From: an uncultured Erysipelotrichaceae bacterium
Lineage (GTDB): Bacteria > Bacillota_I > Bacilli_A > RF39 > UBA660
Reading direction: 5' to 3'
Length of the DNA stretch: 64,000 nucleotides
NCBI GenBank assembly: GCA_902789425.1
Contig: CADANX010000002.1
Coordinates: 96,316-160,315 of the forward strand
Part shown: positions 5,981-9,613 of the stretch, piece after piece
Layout of the letters: each line of letters begins with the position of its first letter
Position numbering within the stretch: position 1 is the stretch's first letter
Program-made: the position numbers and the translations under genes
Notes under the pieces: model-generated
Told to the model about the DNA's origin: nothing
The model's input: only the letters and a program-made list of their open reading frames with translations
The model's database searches: none

Positions 5981-6009
5981 TTGAGCAATATATTTTTCTA
6001 TTGTATAAT
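5981..6009 (+). promoter_or_regulatory. sigma-A-type promoter of the VTC/DUF4956/CotH operon
   Basis: TTGAGC (5981-5986), 17-nt spacer, TATAAT (6004-6009) preceded by TG. GGAG SD at 6026-6029 precedes the ATG at 6037. Confidence 0.55.
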
Positions 6010-6036
6010 AAAAAACGTTTAATTTGGAGTAAGCAT

Positions 6037-6732
6037 ATGAAACTAGACATAAAAAGAGAAGAAAACAAATATTATTTATCCAAAATTGATAGTTTAAAAG
6101 TAAGAAATAAACTTGATAATGTACTTAAAAAAGACGCGTTAGCCAGTGGTGATTCTTATAAAGTAAGAAGTTTATATTTTGATTCTATTAATAATATAGA
6201 TTATAGTGATAAACTATGTGGTAGAGAAGATAGAAAAAAAATAAGACTTAGACTTTATGGTAGTAATTCAGATATTATTAAACTTGAAATTAAAAAGAAA
6301 AATTGTGAATTTCAAAACAAAATTAGTCTAGTTATAAATAAAAATGATGCTCTTGAAATAGTTAAAGGAAATTATAAAGTTCTTTATAATTATTTTGATA
6401 ATGAAGATGCAATATATATTTATAATACAATGACACTTGGTTGTTATAGACCAAAAGTTATGGTTGAATATGATAGAATCGCTTATGTTTTTAATGAATT
6501 TAATACAAGAATTACTTTTGATTATAATATTAAATCATCTGAAAGTGATTTTGATTTATTTAAAGAAAATCCAAATTACATAAATATATTAAATGATAGT
6601 ACCATTATGGAAGTTAAGTATAATGGTAATTTGGTTACTTTTGTATCTAAAATACTAAGTGAATTTAATTTAAATAGTCTTTCATATAGTAAATATATTG
6701 AAGCAAGAAAAGTTTTTAATAGTTTTGATTAG
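6037..6732 (+). CDS. VTC-domain (polyphosphate-polymerase/CYTH-like) protein
   Basis: REENKYYL..., YKVRSLYFDS, RKKIRLRLYG and IIKLEIKKK follow the bacterial VTC-domain pattern. ATG 6037 with an SD is preferred over the TTG at 6001, which sits inside the -10 box. Confidence 0.75.
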   Translation: MKLDIKREENKYYLSKIDSLKVRNKLDNVLKKDALASGDSYKVRSLYFDSINNIDYSDKLCGREDRKKIRLRLYGSNSDIIKLEIKKKNCEFQNKISLVINKNDALEIVKGNYKVLYNYFDNEDAIYIYNTMTLGCYRPKVMVEYDRIAYVFNEFNTRITFDYNIKSSESDFDLFKENPNYINILNDSTIMEVKYNGNLVTFVSKILSEFNLNSLSYSKYIEARKVFNSFD

Positions 6733-6744
6733 GGAGTTTTGATT

Positions 6745-7419
6745 ATGAGTAAAAAAGATATTTTTAACTATTTTTATACAAATAGTACTAATTTTAATGT
6801 AGAATCTATTTTAATGATTATGGCCGGAGGATTATTAATAAGCTTAATAATTTTCTTAACGTATTGGGTAAGTTATAAAGGAGTTTCTTATAATAGAAAA
6901 TTTAATATATCACTTGTTATACTTACTCTAATATCTATTGTTATTATGTTAATGATAAGTAGTAATATTGTTATATCCTTAGGTATGGTAGGTGCACTAT
7001 CAATTATAAGATTTAGAACACCAATTAAAGATAGTAGGGATACTGTATACATTTTTTGGGCTATAACAGAAGGACTTTGTGTTGGATCACAAAACTTTAA
7101 ACTATCTTTAATCACAACGCTATTTATTGCAATTATTATATTACTTACTTGTTTTATACCAAAATTATTTAATAAATATTTAATAATTGTTAGAGGAACT
7201 AATACTAAAATTGATGTAGCAGATTTATTAAGAGAAGTAAGTACTTATGCAGTATCATATAAAATTAGAACACTTTCAAAAGACAAAGAATCAGAAGAAG
7301 TAATTATTGAAGCAACAGTTAAAAGAATACTTAATCCAGATATTGTAGAAAAATTACTTAAAGTTAAAGGGGTAACATCTGTAAATTATATTATTGAAAC
7401 AGGTGAGAATGTTGGATAA
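6745..7419 (+). CDS. DUF4956-family membrane protein
   Basis: Four to five TM segments and the family hallmark GALSIIRFRTPIKDSRDTVYIFWAITEGLCVG. ATG 6745 lies 8 nt after the GGGAG SD. Confidence 0.75.
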   Translation: MSKKDIFNYFYTNSTNFNVESILMIMAGGLLISLIIFLTYWVSYKGVSYNRKFNISLVILTLISIVIMLMISSNIVISLGMVGALSIIRFRTPIKDSRDTVYIFWAITEGLCVGSQNFKLSLITTLFIAIIILLTCFIPKLFNKYLIIVRGTNTKIDVADLLREVSTYAVSYKIRTLSKDKESEEVIIEATVKRILNPDIVEKLLKVKGVTSVNYIIETGENVG

Positions 7420-9613
7420 GAATAAGAGTATTATTAAAAGCTTGCTTATAGTTTTTATCTTCTTTTTTTCTTTTATAATATTATTCTATATATCATATGA
7501 AAGAAGAGATTTATCTACTGTATTATCGTTTGTTAATGGTGATGAAATCTTTTCATTTAATCATGATTCAGGAATATACAATAAAGAAATAAAATTAAAA
7601 ATAAAAAAGAATAGATTAATCCCTAAAAATGCTAGTATTTATTATACAACAGATGGTAGTAATCCTAGTATGGATAGTACTGAATATACAAAAGAAATTA
7701 AACTTTCTCTTGATGATGAAAAATATAAAATTTATTATTTAAAATTTACTTTATGTTATAAAAGTGAATGCAGTGAGTTTGCCGATAAAACATATATTAT
7801 ATCAAAAGATAATATGAAATCATTTAATATTCCTATTATCACATTAAATACTGATTCTAATAATTTATTTGATGAAAATTCAGGTTTGTTTGTGCAAAGA
7901 AACTATTATGTAAGAGATAATTCCTTTGCTAAGAAAACCAAAATGTCATTATTTGATAAAGATGGAAACGTTTCTATTAATCAAAATATAGGTATTATTC
8001 TTTCAGGTAATGCATCTGTATGGCAAGATGTTAAATCACTTAAATTAATTGCAGGTTATGAATATGATTCAAAAAATGATAAATTCGATTATTCTTTTGA
8101 TACTTATGAATCAGAAATATATCAACCTATAAAATATAATACTTTAAGGTTATCTAGCGGTGGACAAGATAATGTTTATACTAACATAAGAAATAATGCA
8201 ATTTATGATCTTGCAAAAGAAGCCGGATTTGATGGATACCGTGATTCACAAAGAGTACTTGTATTTTTAAATAATAGTTTTTATGGTGTTATGTCACTTG
8301 AACAATCTTTTTCAGATTCGTTTTTGAAAAAAAGATATAATTTAAGTACTAAAGATATAGAAAAATATAAAGGATCTGTTAAAACCTCTTTTAAAAAGGC
8401 AGATTTATATAAGTATCTAGATGATCTAAATGACGATACTGTTAGAAATGAATTTGAAGAAAAAGTTGATATTGATAATTTGCTAAAATATTATACTATT
8501 GAGTTTTTAGTTAAAAATAGTGATTTTCCAACTAAGAATTTTGAAATATGGAGATATACCGGAGAATATGATAAAAATAATAAATATTCTGACGGAAAAT
8601 ATAGATGTTTGTTATATGATTTAGATTTCTCATATTTTAGTAGTGATATGAATGTTTATTGGAAGAATTGGGATGTTGGTGTTGATTCTTTTGATGTACT
8701 TATACATAATGATGATACTGTGTTTTATAAATTAATGAAGAATAAAGATTATAGATATAAATTTATTACTATGTTAAGAACTGAACTTGGAACAGTATTT
8801 TATACTGACAATATTGTTAATAAATTTACTGAAGAATATAATAAAATATATAAATTAAATGAGTATTTTTTAAGTGAAGAAAGATTTAATAATTTTGTAT
8901 CTTATTTTGAAGATACTATAAATGAAATAGGAAAACGTGAGAATCAAATTGATAAAATTGTTTCATCTGGATTTGACTTACAAGAAAAATATACTTTAAA
9001 TATAGTTACATCCGAAGGTTCTTATGCTAATATTTATGATTATAAGATATATCAAAATCTTGATTATAGGAATACATATTATAAATATTCAAAAATGAAA
9101 ATAACTTTTGATTCATATCCAGGTTATGATTTTGATTATTTAGTTGTAAATGGCAAAAAAATATATAAAAAAGAATTAAATGTTTCTAAAAAAATGATTG
9201 ATGATAATAAATTAACAATTGAAGTACATTCAAAAAGGAACAATATTAATCTAATTATTAAAGAAATAAAATATAATGGAGGAGAAGATTATATTGTTAT
9301 AAAGAATATTTCTAATAAAAAATTACCTTTAATGAATTATTACTTATCTGATGATAGAAAGAATTTAAAGAAATATAATTTATCAAGTAAAACAATTAAA
9401 TCTTCAGAAGAAAGAACTGTTTTTGGAAAAGATAATCTTAATTCTTTTGGTGATCTTATAGCTAATTTTAATCTAAAAGATTATGAGACTTTATATTTAT
9501 ATAATAGTAAAACTGATACAATTGAGGATCTTGTTTATTTACCTAGGCTTAATAAATGTGAAGTATATTTTAGATATGATGATAGTGATACTTTTAAAAT
9601 AGTTTTAAAATAA
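7394..9613 (+). CDS. CotH-family atypical kinase with N-terminal TM anchor and C-terminal lamin-tail-like domain
   Basis: N-terminal TM (LLIVFIFFFSFIILFYI); IYYTTDGSNPS (chitobiase C-terminal-like motif); central CotH-like core (NIRNNAIYDLAKEAGFDGYRDSQRVLVFLNNSFYGVMSLEQ); C-terminal IIKEIKYNGGEDYIVIKNIS...YYLSDD resembles an LTD domain. The start is uncertain (TTG 7394 or ATG 7409); either choice overlaps the DUF4956 stop. Confidence 0.75.
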   Translation: MKQVRMLDKNKSIIKSLLIVFIFFFSFIILFYISYERRDLSTVLSFVNGDEIFSFNHDSGIYNKEIKLKIKKNRLIPKNASIYYTTDGSNPSMDSTEYTKEIKLSLDDEKYKIYYLKFTLCYKSECSEFADKTYIISKDNMKSFNIPIITLNTDSNNLFDENSGLFVQRNYYVRDNSFAKKTKMSLFDKDGNVSINQNIGIILSGNASVWQDVKSLKLIAGYEYDSKNDKFDYSFDTYESEIYQPIKYNTLRLSSGGQDNVYTNIRNNAIYDLAKEAGFDGYRDSQRVLVFLNNSFYGVMSLEQSFSDSFLKKRYNLSTKDIEKYKGSVKTSFKKADLYKYLDDLNDDTVRNEFEEKVDIDNLLKYYTIEFLVKNSDFPTKNFEIWRYTGEYDKNNKYSDGKYRCLLYDLDFSYFSSDMNVYWKNWDVGVDSFDVLIHNDDTVFYKLMKNKDYRYKFITMLRTELGTVFYTDNIVNKFTEEYNKIYKLNEYFLSEERFNNFVSYFEDTINEIGKRENQIDKIVSSGFDLQEKYTLNIVTSEGSYANIYDYKIYQNLDYRNTYYKYSKMKITFDSYPGYDFDYLVVNGKKIYKKELNVSKKMIDDNKLTIEVHSKRNNINLIIKEIKYNGGEDYIVIKNISNKKLPLMNYYLSDDRKNLKKYNLSSKTIKSSEERTVFGKDNLNSFGDLIANFNLKDYETLYLYNSKTDTIEDLVYLPRLNKCEVYFRYDDSDTFKIVLK

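What the first reader, a model, noticed from the sequence alone, without database searches (positions are those of the whole stretch)
5981..9613. VTC-domain / DUF4956 / CotH-kinase operon between a wall-polymer cluster and the giant adhesin genes
Three tightly coupled genes lie behind one promoter; the intergenic gap is 12 nt, followed by an overlap. They encode a cytoplasmic VTC (polyphosphate-polymerase/CYTH-like) domain protein, a DUF4956 membrane protein and a membrane-anchored CotH-type atypical kinase. The kinase carries an extra chitobiase-C-like motif (IYYTTDGSNPS) and a lamin-tail-like C-terminus. CotH is established as a spore-coat protein kinase in Bacillus. The VTC domain is the catalytic polyphosphate polymerase of eukaryotic VTC complexes. 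As far as I know, the role of this bacterial triad is not worked out. The layout suggests polyP or a phosphorylated product made at the membrane and used outside the cell. The position next to surface-polymer and surface-protein genes is suggestive, but it is not evidence of a functional link.
Basis: partly seen in the sequence, partly recalled or inferred. Interest (0 to 1): 0.62.

Follow-up and report, generated by a model that had tools for sequence, protein, structure and literature searches.

The report
Conserved polyphosphate-polymerase / membrane / ecto-kinase gene cassette
A rumen bacterium carries a three-gene cassette (a cytoplasmic polyphosphate-polymerase-like enzyme, an MgtC-like membrane protein and a membrane-anchored outward-facing CotH kinase) that is conserved across gut Firmicutes and already noted in the literature, but whose biochemical function is still unknown.

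Summary
Three co-oriented genes lie at 6037-6732 (VTC), 6745-7419 (DUF4956) and 7409-9613 (CotH), with a 12-nt gap and then an 11-nt overlap. All domain calls hold; only LTD scores below Pfam's cutoff, and a fold match supports it.

Residues known to be catalytic in yeast Vtc4 and Bacillus CotH are conserved. VTC has no TM segment. CotH has one N-terminal anchor, so its bulk should face outward.

In 80 named genomes, DUF4956 follows VTC almost always (median spacing 17 nt). CotH lies within 10 kb in 74. Five of the six exceptions are truncated contigs.

The triad is not new. It was described as an accessory module of Gram-positive pel loci and sits in C. perfringens NELoc-2, but no biochemistry exists.

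Three points go beyond the finding:
- The transcription unit is probably four genes, bounded by AT-rich hairpins. The fourth is a lineage-specific 310-aa membrane protein.
- Short-form CotH triads sit in GT2/EPS-synthase operons. Long-form triads like this one have no recurrent neighbours, so the wall-polymer and adhesin context is not conserved.
- The cassette occurs outside pel loci, contrary to a 2025 statement.

My best mechanism is inference only: polyP is made at the membrane, handed outward via DUF4956, and used by CotH.

The parts
5935..5970 (+). AT-rich 14-bp stem-loop overlapping the stop codon of the upstream acyltransferase gene. It is terminator-like and a probable 5' boundary of the unit.
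   Evidence: -9.2 kcal/mol, z=-2.74, 2 of 200 shuffles fold as well. The scanner missed it because it needs at least 3 G-C pairs.
5981..6009 (+). Promoter-like TTGAGC-17-TATAAT, 28 nt upstream of the VTC start codon
   Evidence: 10 of 12 matches. Such matches occur at chance frequency in this AT-rich region, so this is a candidate only.
6037..6732 (+). VTC-domain protein, 231 aa, with no TM segment. It is a cytoplasmic triphosphate-tunnel (TTM) polyphosphate-polymerase-like enzyme.
   Evidence: Pfam VTC E=1.8e-32, full length. A profile of 25 homologs hits the yeast Vtc4 catalytic domain 3G3Q at E=1.1e-5. K11, R70, R72, E84, K86, K95, Y145, R147 and R158 align with Vtc4 K200, R264, R266, E279, K281, K294, Y359, R361 and R373, and all are invariant. 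GGAG RBS.
6745..7419 (+). DUF4956 protein, 224 aa. It is a polytopic membrane protein with a cytoplasmic C-terminal ACT/MgtC-C-like domain.
   Evidence: Pfam DUF4956 E=4.3e-11. A weak, near full-length NCBIfam MgtC/SapB hit at E=4.8e-5 is far below that model's cutoff. Hydrophobic segments lie at 17-44, 51-88 and 115-149, with K/R-rich loops at 45-55 and 88-104. The model's C-domain has pLDDT of about 80 and matches ACT domains and the MgtC C-domain 2LQJ. It is the most conserved of the three genes, at 55-75% identity.
7409..9613 (+). Membrane-anchored long-form CotH kinase, 734 aa: N-terminal TM helix, Ig-like CHB_HEX_C domain, CotH kinase core, beta-sandwich, lamin-tail-like domain.
   Evidence: Pfam. 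AlphaFold2 model pLDDT 86, pTM 0.78. Foldseek hits B. cereus CotH 5JDA at E=7.7e-12, target TM 0.74, and lamin tail 3JT0 at probability 1.0. A single TM-like segment spans residues 5-32. D372, N377, D404 and D406 align with B. cereus D224, N229, D247 and D249, that is B. subtilis D228 and D251.
8030..8857 (+). CotH kinase core within the CotH gene (Pfam-matched stretch)
   Evidence: residues 213-488 of the 739-aa reading; alignment to 5JD9.
9666..10598 (+). 310-aa protein with four N-terminal TM-like segments and a soluble C-terminal domain of no known family. It is probably a fourth gene of the unit and is lineage-specific.
   Evidence: No Pfam or NCBIfam hit. There is a 52-nt gap with no significant hairpin after CotH. 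The gene is conserved at 46% identity in the same position in the closest relative L003, but is absent from the other 82 loci.
10592..10622 (+). 10-bp stem-loop overlapping the stop codon of the 310-aa gene, followed by a U9 run. It looks like an intrinsic terminator and is the probable 3' boundary of the unit.
   Evidence: direct reading of the fold and sequence. The next gene has its own TG-extended promoter-like site at 10632-10659.

Best explanation
This is a self-contained phosphate-handling cassette acting at the cell envelope.

Shown:
- A cytoplasmic VTC-type tunnel enzyme keeps the residues needed for polyphosphate synthesis in yeast Vtc4.
- It is almost always encoded immediately before an MgtC-like polytopic membrane protein with a cytoplasmic ACT-like domain.
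- A CotH kinase with intact catalytic aspartates accompanies the pair and is anchored by one N-terminal helix, so its catalytic domain should sit outside the membrane.

Inferred:
- The VTC protein makes polyphosphate from ATP at the inner face of the membrane.
- Docked on an oligomer of DUF4956, it passes the chain, or its phosphoryl groups, across the membrane, much as the eukaryotic VTC complex couples synthesis to translocation.
- The external CotH domain works in a compartment without ATP. It uses this supply to phosphorylate, or attach polyphosphate to, a surface polymer or surface protein.
- Its Ig-like and lamin-tail-like domains hold it on the wall.

In short-form relatives the target would be the exopolysaccharide made by the adjacent GT2 or Pel synthase. 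For this long-form, stand-alone version the target is probably a generic wall component.
For: Domains and catalytic residues:
- Pfam and PDB profile hits and a fold match.
- Window R70 and R72 equal Vtc4 R264 and R266. Mutating those two plus E426 inactivates VTC (PMC9911596).
- Window D372 and D404 equal CotH D228 and D251, whose mutants are kinase-dead (PMC7821199).
- All four are invariant or nearly so in the homolog alignments.

Topology:
- VTC has no TM segment; CotH has a single N-terminal anchor.
- 82 of 86 CotH partners in other genomes have an N-terminal hydrophobic segment.

Coupling:
- VTC-to-DUF4956 spacing has a median of 17 nt, and 74 of 80 pairs are within 60 nt.
- In this window the gap is 12 nt, followed by an 11-nt overlap.

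Co-conservation:
- CotH is immediately downstream in 61, immediately upstream in 3 and within 10 kb in 10 of 80 genomes.
- 5 of the 6 'absent' cases are truncated contigs (validated by Pfam).

Link to secreted polymers:
- A chitin-synthase-like GT2 is present in 41 of 80 loci.
- MBOAT plus AlgX-like O-acetylation genes, GH5, GT4 and GT2+PilZ genes also recur.
- The pel association is reported in 10.1101/768473.

Genetics in a relative: deleting the DUF4956 or CotH homolog in S. intermedius changed Pel amount and reduced aggregation (PMC12345266).

Precedent: in the eukaryotic VTC complex the tunnel exit sits on a basic TM channel, and the isolated polymerase domain is slow (PMC9911596).
Against: - There is no biochemical evidence for any bacterial member.
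- In S. intermedius the VTC deletion had no phenotype in the assays used. The DUF4956 and CotH deletions changed Pel levels in opposite directions (PMC12345266). Neither result fits a simple linear pathway.
- No natural VTC-DUF4956 fusion turned up among 149 strong hits in 1.84 billion representatives.
- The DUF4956 membrane part was modelled with low confidence (pLDDT 50-70) and has no solved relative.
- To my knowledge the MgtC family is described as a regulator of the ATP synthase and PhoR, not as a channel.
- DUF4956 is unrelated to the Vtc1-type channel, and the protein has no SPX domain.
- Bacillus CotH uses ATP, and I know of no polyP-dependent kinase with this fold.
- The equivalent of Vtc4 E426 could not be mapped.
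Confidence: 0.35

Rival explanations
1. Regulatory module without polyphosphate export. VTC and DUF4956 form a cytoplasmic-face phosphate or energy sensing pair. The MgtC-like protein's ACT domain senses a metabolite, and VTC buffers phosphate as cytoplasmic polyP. The pair tunes envelope or exopolysaccharide output. CotH is a separate ATP-dependent secreted or anchored protein kinase acting on surface, neighbouring-cell or host proteins.
For: DUF4956 shows MgtC/SapB-like sequence and an ACT/MgtC-C-like fold. The S. intermedius authors interpret the three genes as phosphate-metabolism related and suggest that polyP may remain cytoplasmic (10.1101/2024.04.20.589940; PMC12345266). The opposite effects of the DUF4956 and CotH deletions on Pel level look regulatory. 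No VTC-DUF4956 fusion was found.
Against: This does not explain why an extracytoplasmic kinase is nearly always encoded with, and translationally coupled to, the pair. It also leaves open where such a kinase would get ATP outside the cell.
Confidence: 0.25
2. The VTC-domain protein is not a polymerase. It is another kind of triphosphate-tunnel enzyme, such as a tri- or polyphosphatase, or a maker or breaker of a small phosphorylated signal. The ACT domain of DUF4956 reads its product, in place of c-di-GMP control in organisms that lack it.
For: The tunnel-enzyme superfamily includes hydrolases and cyclases (general knowledge, not tested here). The E426 equivalent was not mapped. Streptococcal pel loci with this module lack canonical c-di-GMP control (10.1101/768473).
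Against: The match is specifically to the VTC family over its full length. At least nine Vtc4 tunnel residues, including R264 and R266, are invariant. Some loci combine the module with a PilZ-bearing synthase, so it does not simply replace c-di-GMP control.
Confidence: 0.15
3. Spore-coat function as in Bacillus: CotH phosphorylates coat proteins during sporulation.
For: CotH family membership and conserved catalytic residues.
Against: The protein has an N-terminal membrane anchor and extracellular-type domains. The window contains no Ser/Lys/Arg-rich CotB/CotG-like protein. The same triad occurs in Streptococcus and Enterococcus genomes and in MAGs labelled Muribaculaceae, groups that do not form spores.
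Confidence: 0.03

Closest known systems
cotH / polyphosphate-polymerase / DUF4956 (/DUF4832) accessory genes of Gram-positive pel loci (Whitfield et al., bioRxiv 10.1101/768473; S. intermedius SIR_1594-1592, PMC12345266)
   Same: It has the same three protein families, co-oriented and contiguous. CotH is predicted to be secreted or external, VTC cytoplasmic, and DUF4956 a 4-5 TM protein with an ACT domain.
   Different: No pel genes occur anywhere in the 64-kb window or in the extra 2.6 kb upstream in L001. The gene order is VTC-DUF4956-CotH, whereas in S. intermedius CotH appears to come first, judging by locus-tag order and 'first/second/third additional gene' in 10.1101/2024.04.20.589940. 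This CotH is a long form with CHB_HEX_C and lamin-tail domains in place of an FN3 domain. There is no DUF4832 hydrolase, and a lineage-specific 310-aa membrane protein is added.
C. perfringens NELoc-2 cluster: VTC, 226-aa membrane protein (annotated 'tubulin/FtsZ'), CotH, 685-aa hypothetical, HEAT-repeat protein, 'chitin synthase' (PMC2879425)
   Same: It has the VTC, ~225-aa membrane protein, CotH order. In my survey the commonest context matches that published layout: a ~700-aa unknown, a HEAT protein and a chitin-synthase-like GT2 downstream (17-20 loci; GT2 in 41 of 80). Some survey genomes also carry a duplicated VTC-DUF4956 pair.
   Different: The window has no GT2 synthase, HEAT protein or 700-aa gene after CotH. 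Its CotH is the long form (734 aa against 497 aa). That the NELoc-2 226-aa protein is a DUF4956 protein is inferred from its size and position and was not tested.
Eukaryotic VTC complex (Vtc4/Vtc3/Vtc1), a polyphosphate polymerase coupled to a membrane channel (PMC9911596)
   Same: The catalytic domain belongs to the same Pfam family, and the tunnel residues are conserved. The enzyme is paired with a dedicated membrane protein.
   Different: The bacterial protein is a stand-alone ~230-aa domain with no SPX sensor and no fused TM region. Its membrane partner is MgtC-like DUF4956, not the Vtc1-type three-helix domain. Polymerase activity and translocation are untested.
Bacillus CotH-CotG-CotB spore-coat phosphorylation module (PMC7821199)
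   Same: It has the CotH atypical kinase fold with the two catalytic aspartates.
   Different: The Bacillus enzyme is about 360 aa, has no membrane anchor, acts during coat assembly using ATP, and has adjacent Ser/Lys/Arg-repeat substrates. None of these applies here.
MgtC/SapB family membrane proteins
   Same: DUF4956 has a polytopic N-terminal part plus a small ACT-like cytoplasmic C-domain. There is a weak near full-length sequence match and a fold match to the MgtC C-domain.
   Different: The sequence match is far below the family cutoff (23 bits against 214). DUF4956 has its own invariant motif, SSN..SLGMVGALS.RFRT..K.SRDT, and an obligate VTC partner.

Membership tests
VTC / Vtc4-type polyphosphate polymerase (PF09359) | Full-length match to the VTC domain profile above the curated cutoff | tested here: met
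   113.2 bits against a cutoff of 23, profile positions 1-234 of 235. A profile of homologs hits Vtc4 3G3Q at E=1.1e-5.
VTC / Vtc4-type polyphosphate polymerase (PF09359) | Basic tunnel residues needed for catalysis (Vtc4 K200, R264, R266, K281, R361, R373) | tested here: met
   K11, R70, R72, K86, R147 and R158 align to these residues and are invariant in 25 homologs. The importance of R264 and R266 comes from PMC9911596. The roles of the other residues are from my recollection of the Vtc4 structure paper.
VTC / Vtc4-type polyphosphate polymerase (PF09359) | Acidic catalytic residue equivalent to Vtc4 E426 | tested here: inconclusive
   The PDB alignment stops before this region, and a profile of the C-terminal part alone did not hit Vtc4. 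Invariant E192 (LEVK) is a candidate only.
VTC / Vtc4-type polyphosphate polymerase (PF09359) | Assembly with Vtc1-type TM subunits and an SPX regulatory domain | tested here: not met
   The protein is 231 aa with a single domain and no TM segment. Its partner is DUF4956, not a Vtc1-type domain. It is therefore a relative of the catalytic domain, not a member of the VTC complex.
VTC / Vtc4-type polyphosphate polymerase (PF09359) | Synthesis of polyphosphate from ATP | not testable with these tools
   This needs an enzyme assay. I found no bacterial member characterised in the literature.
CotH atypical protein kinase (PF08757) | CotH kinase fold | tested here: met
   Pfam 45.1 bits against a cutoff of 23.8. 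Profile hit to 5JD9 at E=2.8e-10. Foldseek hit to 5JDA at E=7.7e-12, target TM 0.74.
CotH atypical protein kinase (PF08757) | Catalytic Asp and metal-binding Asp (B. subtilis D228, D251) | tested here: met
   D372 and D404 (with D406) align to B. cereus D224 and D247 (with D249). These correspond to B. subtilis D228 and D251 by a +4 numbering offset that I inferred; B. subtilis CotH itself was not aligned. D372 and D406 are invariant and D404 at least 90% conserved in the alignment. The mutant data are in PMC7821199.
CotH atypical protein kinase (PF08757) | Spore-coat setting with adjacent Ser/Lys/Arg-repeat substrates (CotG/CotB) | tested here: not met
   No such protein is encoded in the window, and this protein has a membrane anchor and extracellular-type domains. 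It belongs to the fold family but not to the spore-coat system.
MgtC/SapB family | Sequence match above the family cutoff | tested here: not met
   NCBIfam PRK09977 gives 23.1 bits against a cutoff of 214. The protein is related in architecture and C-domain fold only.
Pel-associated cotH/PPP/DUF4956 accessory module | The three families contiguous and co-oriented | tested here: met
Pel-associated cotH/PPP/DUF4956 accessory module | Contiguity with a pelDEA(DA)FG operon | tested here: not met
   The upstream genes are two GT2s, a TagF-like glycerophosphotransferase, a Wzx-type flippase and an acyltransferase. Downstream lie surface proteins and housekeeping genes. One giant ORF (25943-38992) and some short ORFs were not scanned.

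The most novel reading that the evidence does not exclude
Gram-positive bacteria have their own counterpart of the eukaryotic VTC machine. A stand-alone tunnel polymerase docks on an MgtC-like membrane oligomer and extrudes polyphosphate to the cell surface. There an anchored CotH enzyme uses polyphosphate, not ATP, as phosphoryl donor, or ligates it, to modify wall polymers, exopolysaccharides or surface proteins. This would be a third bacterial route to polyphosphate besides PPK1 and PPK2, the first polyphosphate exporter in bacteria, and an answer to how an extracellular kinase is fuelled.
Probability: 0.22. Interest if true: 0.85.

Novelty: new variant of a known kind. Interest (0 to 1): 0.55.

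Why it matters
PolyP synthesis in bacteria is usually attributed to PPK1 and PPK2 (for example the review PMC10657179). VTC-type synthesis is treated as eukaryotic.

A widespread bacterial VTC-domain enzyme is locked to a membrane partner and an outward-facing kinase. My search found 8,175 representative clusters for the VTC and DUF4956 families combined. If the enzyme is active, this would open a new branch of polyP biology.

It would also bear on how extracytoplasmic kinases obtain phosphoryl donors, and on how gut and rumen Firmicutes modify their exopolysaccharides.

The module sits in loci linked to biofilm, aggregation and virulence: pel in S. intermedius and NELoc-2 in C. perfringens.

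The survey here gives concrete, culturable species and point mutants with which to test it. It also corrects the view that the module is confined to pel loci.

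Tried and rejected
- **Single-sequence PDB searches.** Searches with each of the three proteins found nothing meaningful. Profiles were needed.
- **C-terminal VTC profile.** A profile of the C-terminal third of VTC, meant to map Vtc4 E426, did not hit Vtc4.
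- **Narrow CotH HMM.** My first CotH HMM, built from the long-form subfamily, suggested that half the genomes lack CotH. This was an artefact. Pfam identified 39 of 48 'unknown' downstream ORFs as CotH. I then iterated the HMM and validated its new calls (7 of 8; L027 has no Pfam hit).
- **Timeout.** A MAFFT-based iteration timed out.
- **Terminator scan.** The built-in scan found none because it requires at least 3 G-C pairs. Folding the intergenic regions found AT-rich hairpins.
- **RNA evidence for co-transcription.** The runs holding the sequence are bovine-gut assemblies of unknown library type, kept only as contigs, so nothing could be concluded.
- **Fusion test.** The concatenated query ran and found no genuine fusion. 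P0318 is a truncated VTC joined to DUF4956, probably an artefact.
- **The 310-aa protein.** It has no family, no solved relative and no homolog beside other triads.
- **Other papers mentioning DUF4956.** They only list it in expression tables.
- **Primary CotH paper.** Nguyen et al. 2016 is not held.
- **Spore-coat reading.** Rejected; see rival explanations.

Full report
**1. What is there**

The window is 20-28% GC, and almost every gene is on the + strand. Three ORFs lie at the stated place.

The ORF lister starts them at upstream TTG codons. Three lines of evidence favour ATG starts instead:
- Gene calls on identical public contigs.
- Lengths of the identical database proteins.
- Shine-Dalgarno motifs.

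**2. Domain assignments**

Pfam confirms the following:
- VTC: E=1.8e-32, full length.
- DUF4956: E=4.3e-11.
- CotH: E=1.3e-11.
- CHB_HEX_C_1: E=3.2e-10, containing IYYTTDGSNPS.
- Fn3_assoc: E=2.7e-7.
- LTD: 27.7 bits, below the 34.3 cutoff.

Single-sequence searches of the PDB found nothing. Profiles built from homologs did better:
- The VTC profile hits the yeast Vtc4 catalytic domain (3G3Q, E=1.1e-5).
- The CotH profile hits B. cereus CotH (5JD9, E=2.8e-10).
- DUF4956 has no solved relative by sequence.

The AlphaFold2 model of the CotH protein is confident (pLDDT 86, pTM 0.78). It shows an N-terminal helix, a beta-sandwich, the kinase core, a second beta-sandwich and a C-terminal beta-sandwich. 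Foldseek returns CotH 5JDA (E=7.7e-12, target TM 0.74). For the C-terminus it returns a lamin tail domain (3JT0, probability 1.0), so the lamin-tail call is supported structurally.

The DUF4956 model is poor in the membrane part (pLDDT 50-70) and fair in the C-terminal domain (about 80). That domain matches ACT domains and the C-domain of M. tuberculosis MgtC (2LQJ). This agrees with a weak, near full-length MgtC/SapB match.

**3. Are the enzymes likely to be active?**

*VTC.* The chain numbering gives an offset of 185. Window residues then correspond to Vtc4 residues as follows:

| Window | K11 | R70 | R72 | E84 | K86 | K95 | Y145 | R147 | R158 |
|---|---|---|---|---|---|---|---|---|---|
| Vtc4 | K200 | R264 | R266 | E279 | K281 | K294 | Y359 | R361 | R373 |

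All are invariant in 25 homologs of 44-65% identity. The Vtc4 R264A/R266A/E426N mutant is catalytically impaired (PMC9911596). I could not map the E426 equivalent.

*CotH.* Window D372, N377, D404 and D406 align with B. cereus D224, N229, D247 and D249. By a +4 numbering offset that I inferred, these correspond to B. subtilis D228 and D251. The D228Q and D251A mutants are inactive (PMC7821199). D372 and D406 are invariant, and D404 nearly so, among 15 homologs of only 19-44% identity.

**4. Topology**

- VTC has no hydrophobic segment.
- CotH has one, at residues 5-32, preceded by two basic residues.
- DUF4956 has three long hydrophobic stretches, enough for four or five helices, with K/R-rich loops at 45-55 and 88-104. 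The second loop carries the invariant RFRT..K.SRDT motif.

A five-helix topology would put both basic loops and the ACT-like domain in the cytoplasm. That is inference from the positive-inside rule.

**5. Transcription unit**

The promoter-like site at 5981-6009 exists, but such sites occur at chance frequency here, and the scanner found no terminators.

Folding the intergenic regions showed three things:
- A 14-bp AT-rich hairpin at 5935-5970 spans the upstream stop codon (z=-2.74).
- There is no significant structure between CotH and the next gene (z=-0.38).
- A 10-bp stem-loop at 10592-10614 is followed by nine U residues.

The unit is therefore probably four genes (6037-10598). The fourth encodes a 310-aa membrane protein of no known family. 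It is kept at 46% identity in the closest relative and is absent beside all other triads.

No RNA data could test this. Those runs do show that the organism lives in the bovine gut.

**6. Co-conservation**

*Close relatives.* Metagenomic relatives keep the VTC-DUF4956-CotH order, with the DUF4956 and CotH genes overlapping. Their CotH is only 42% and 33% identical, and their flanks differ.

*Conservation gradient.* It falls in the order DUF4956 (53-75% among the top 120 hits), VTC (44-65%), CotH (22-44%).

*Survey.* I scanned one genome per species with a VTC profile. That gave 549 relatives, and the best 80 were fetched. They are mostly Lachnospiraceae and other Clostridia, with some Streptococcus, Enterococcus and Paraclostridium genomes and MAGs labelled Muribaculaceae.
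- DUF4956 follows VTC in 78 of the 80, with a median spacing of 17 nt.
- CotH is immediately downstream in 61, immediately upstream in 3 and elsewhere within 10 kb in 10.
- Of the 6 without CotH, 5 are contigs that end within 680 nt. Only Clostridium collagenovorans lacks it with 9 kb of room.
- Pfam confirmed 39 of 48 weak downstream ORFs, and 7 of 8 calls that came only from the iterated HMM.
- 82 of 86 CotH partners have an N-terminal hydrophobic segment.

The sample is biased towards relatives of this VTC protein.

**7. Context**

Clustering all neighbouring ORFs and naming the clusters with Pfam showed two classes.

*Short-form CotH (470-550 aa).* It sits in exopolysaccharide operons:
- A chitin-synthase-like GT2 (41 of 80 loci).
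- Often a ~700-aa unknown and a HEAT-repeat protein, which is the published NELoc-2 layout (PMC2879425).
- Alternatively MBOAT plus AlgX-like acetylation genes and GH5, or GT4.
- Three loci have a GT2+PilZ synthase followed by a second DUF4956.

*Long-form CotH (660-800 aa, as here).* It has no recurrent neighbours. Among 118 flanking ORFs of 17 such loci there are 163 different families, none present in more than five ORFs.

In the window, the upstream genes are two GT2s, a TagF-like glycerophosphotransferase, a Wzx-type flippase and an acyltransferase. Downstream lie giant surface proteins and then housekeeping genes. No pel gene was found.

The wall-polymer and adhesin setting is therefore local, not conserved. 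The family-wide link to secreted polysaccharides is nevertheless strong.

**8. Literature**

- The three families were reported as accessory genes contiguous with pel operons of streptococci, clostridia and bifidobacteria (10.1101/768473).
- In S. intermedius, deleting the DUF4956 or CotH homolog changed Pel level and roughly halved aggregation in sputum medium. Deleting the VTC homolog had no effect in those assays.
- The same authors state that they could not find the arrangement outside pel loci (PMC12345266). The window and most of the 80 genomes contradict that.
- I found no enzymology for any bacterial VTC-domain protein.

**9. Mechanism**

The best-supported reading is a membrane-coupled polyP system feeding an outward-facing CotH enzyme, analogous to the eukaryotic VTC complex.
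- **Shown:** the anatomy, the residue conservation and the co-conservation.
- **Inferred:** polymerase activity, passage through or with DUF4956, and use of polyP by CotH.

Evidence against:
- The silent VTC deletion in S. intermedius.
- The opposite effects of the other two deletions on Pel level.
- The lack of gene fusions among 149 strong hits in 1.84 billion representatives.
- The absence of any precedent for MgtC-like channels or polyP-dependent CotH kinases.

I put this reading at about 0.35. A purely regulatory reading gets 0.25, a non-polymerase tunnel enzyme 0.15, and a spore-coat role 0.03.

**10. Verdict**

This is a real, well-annotated and strongly conserved cassette. It is a known but uncharacterised kind of module, seen here in a stand-alone long-form variant outside any pel or GT2-synthase locus. 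Interest is moderate. It would be high if the polyP-export and ecto-kinase model proved true.

Noticed in passing
window 10685-23578 (junction at 14993/14994): The 1,436-aa and 2,850-aa surface-protein ORFs are a single 4,401-aa gene in a sister assembly (L001). That assembly has 78 extra in-frame bases here, flanked by a short direct repeat (GATGAGGTT). The window lacks them and acquires a TAG stop. The two sequences are otherwise identical over 4.5 kb beyond the junction. This could be a strain deletion, phase-like variation or an assembly collapse.
   Followed up: partly
window 23838-25616 and 39061-40827: Two ~590-aa proteins of no known family each lie directly after a giant surface-protein gene. 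They are paralogs (48% identity over 572 residues), so the unit 'giant protein plus ~590-aa partner' is duplicated.
   Followed up: partly
window 5935-5970 and 10592-10622: Terminator-like hairpins in this 22% GC genome are almost purely A-U, and the consensus scanner misses them because it requires at least 3 G-C pairs.
   Followed up: yes
L011, L013, L022, L029, L081: Some Lachnospiraceae genomes carry two VTC-DUF4956 pairs within about 8 kb, usually each followed by its own CotH, one long form and one short form. This recalls the duplicated pair in C. perfringens NELoc-2.
   Followed up: partly
L048, L050, L085: A variant layout occurs here: VTC, DUF4956, a GT2 synthase with a PilZ domain, then a second DUF4956. 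CotH, MBOAT, an AlgX-like gene and GH5 lie upstream. The module is therefore embedded in a cellulose-synthase-like, c-di-GMP-type operon.
   Followed up: partly
protein hits P0016, P0014: Relatives of the long-form CotH include a protein from the anaerobic rumen fungus Neocallimastix with a fungal dockerin domain (PF02013), and a bacterial one with a type I dockerin (PF00404). This hints at transfer between rumen bacteria and fungi and at cellulosome-attached CotH proteins.
   Followed up: no
window 49514-51280: The alanyl-tRNA-synthetase-like gene is only 588 aa (catalytic core plus the second additional domain). That is short for a full-length AlaRS. Together with the 22% GC content it suggests a reduced or unusual genome.
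   Followed up: no
L026, L027: In two Lachnospiraceae MAGs the VTC gene is separated by about 8 kb from an adjacent DUF4956-CotH pair. These are the only cases where VTC and DUF4956 are not neighbours.
   Followed up: no
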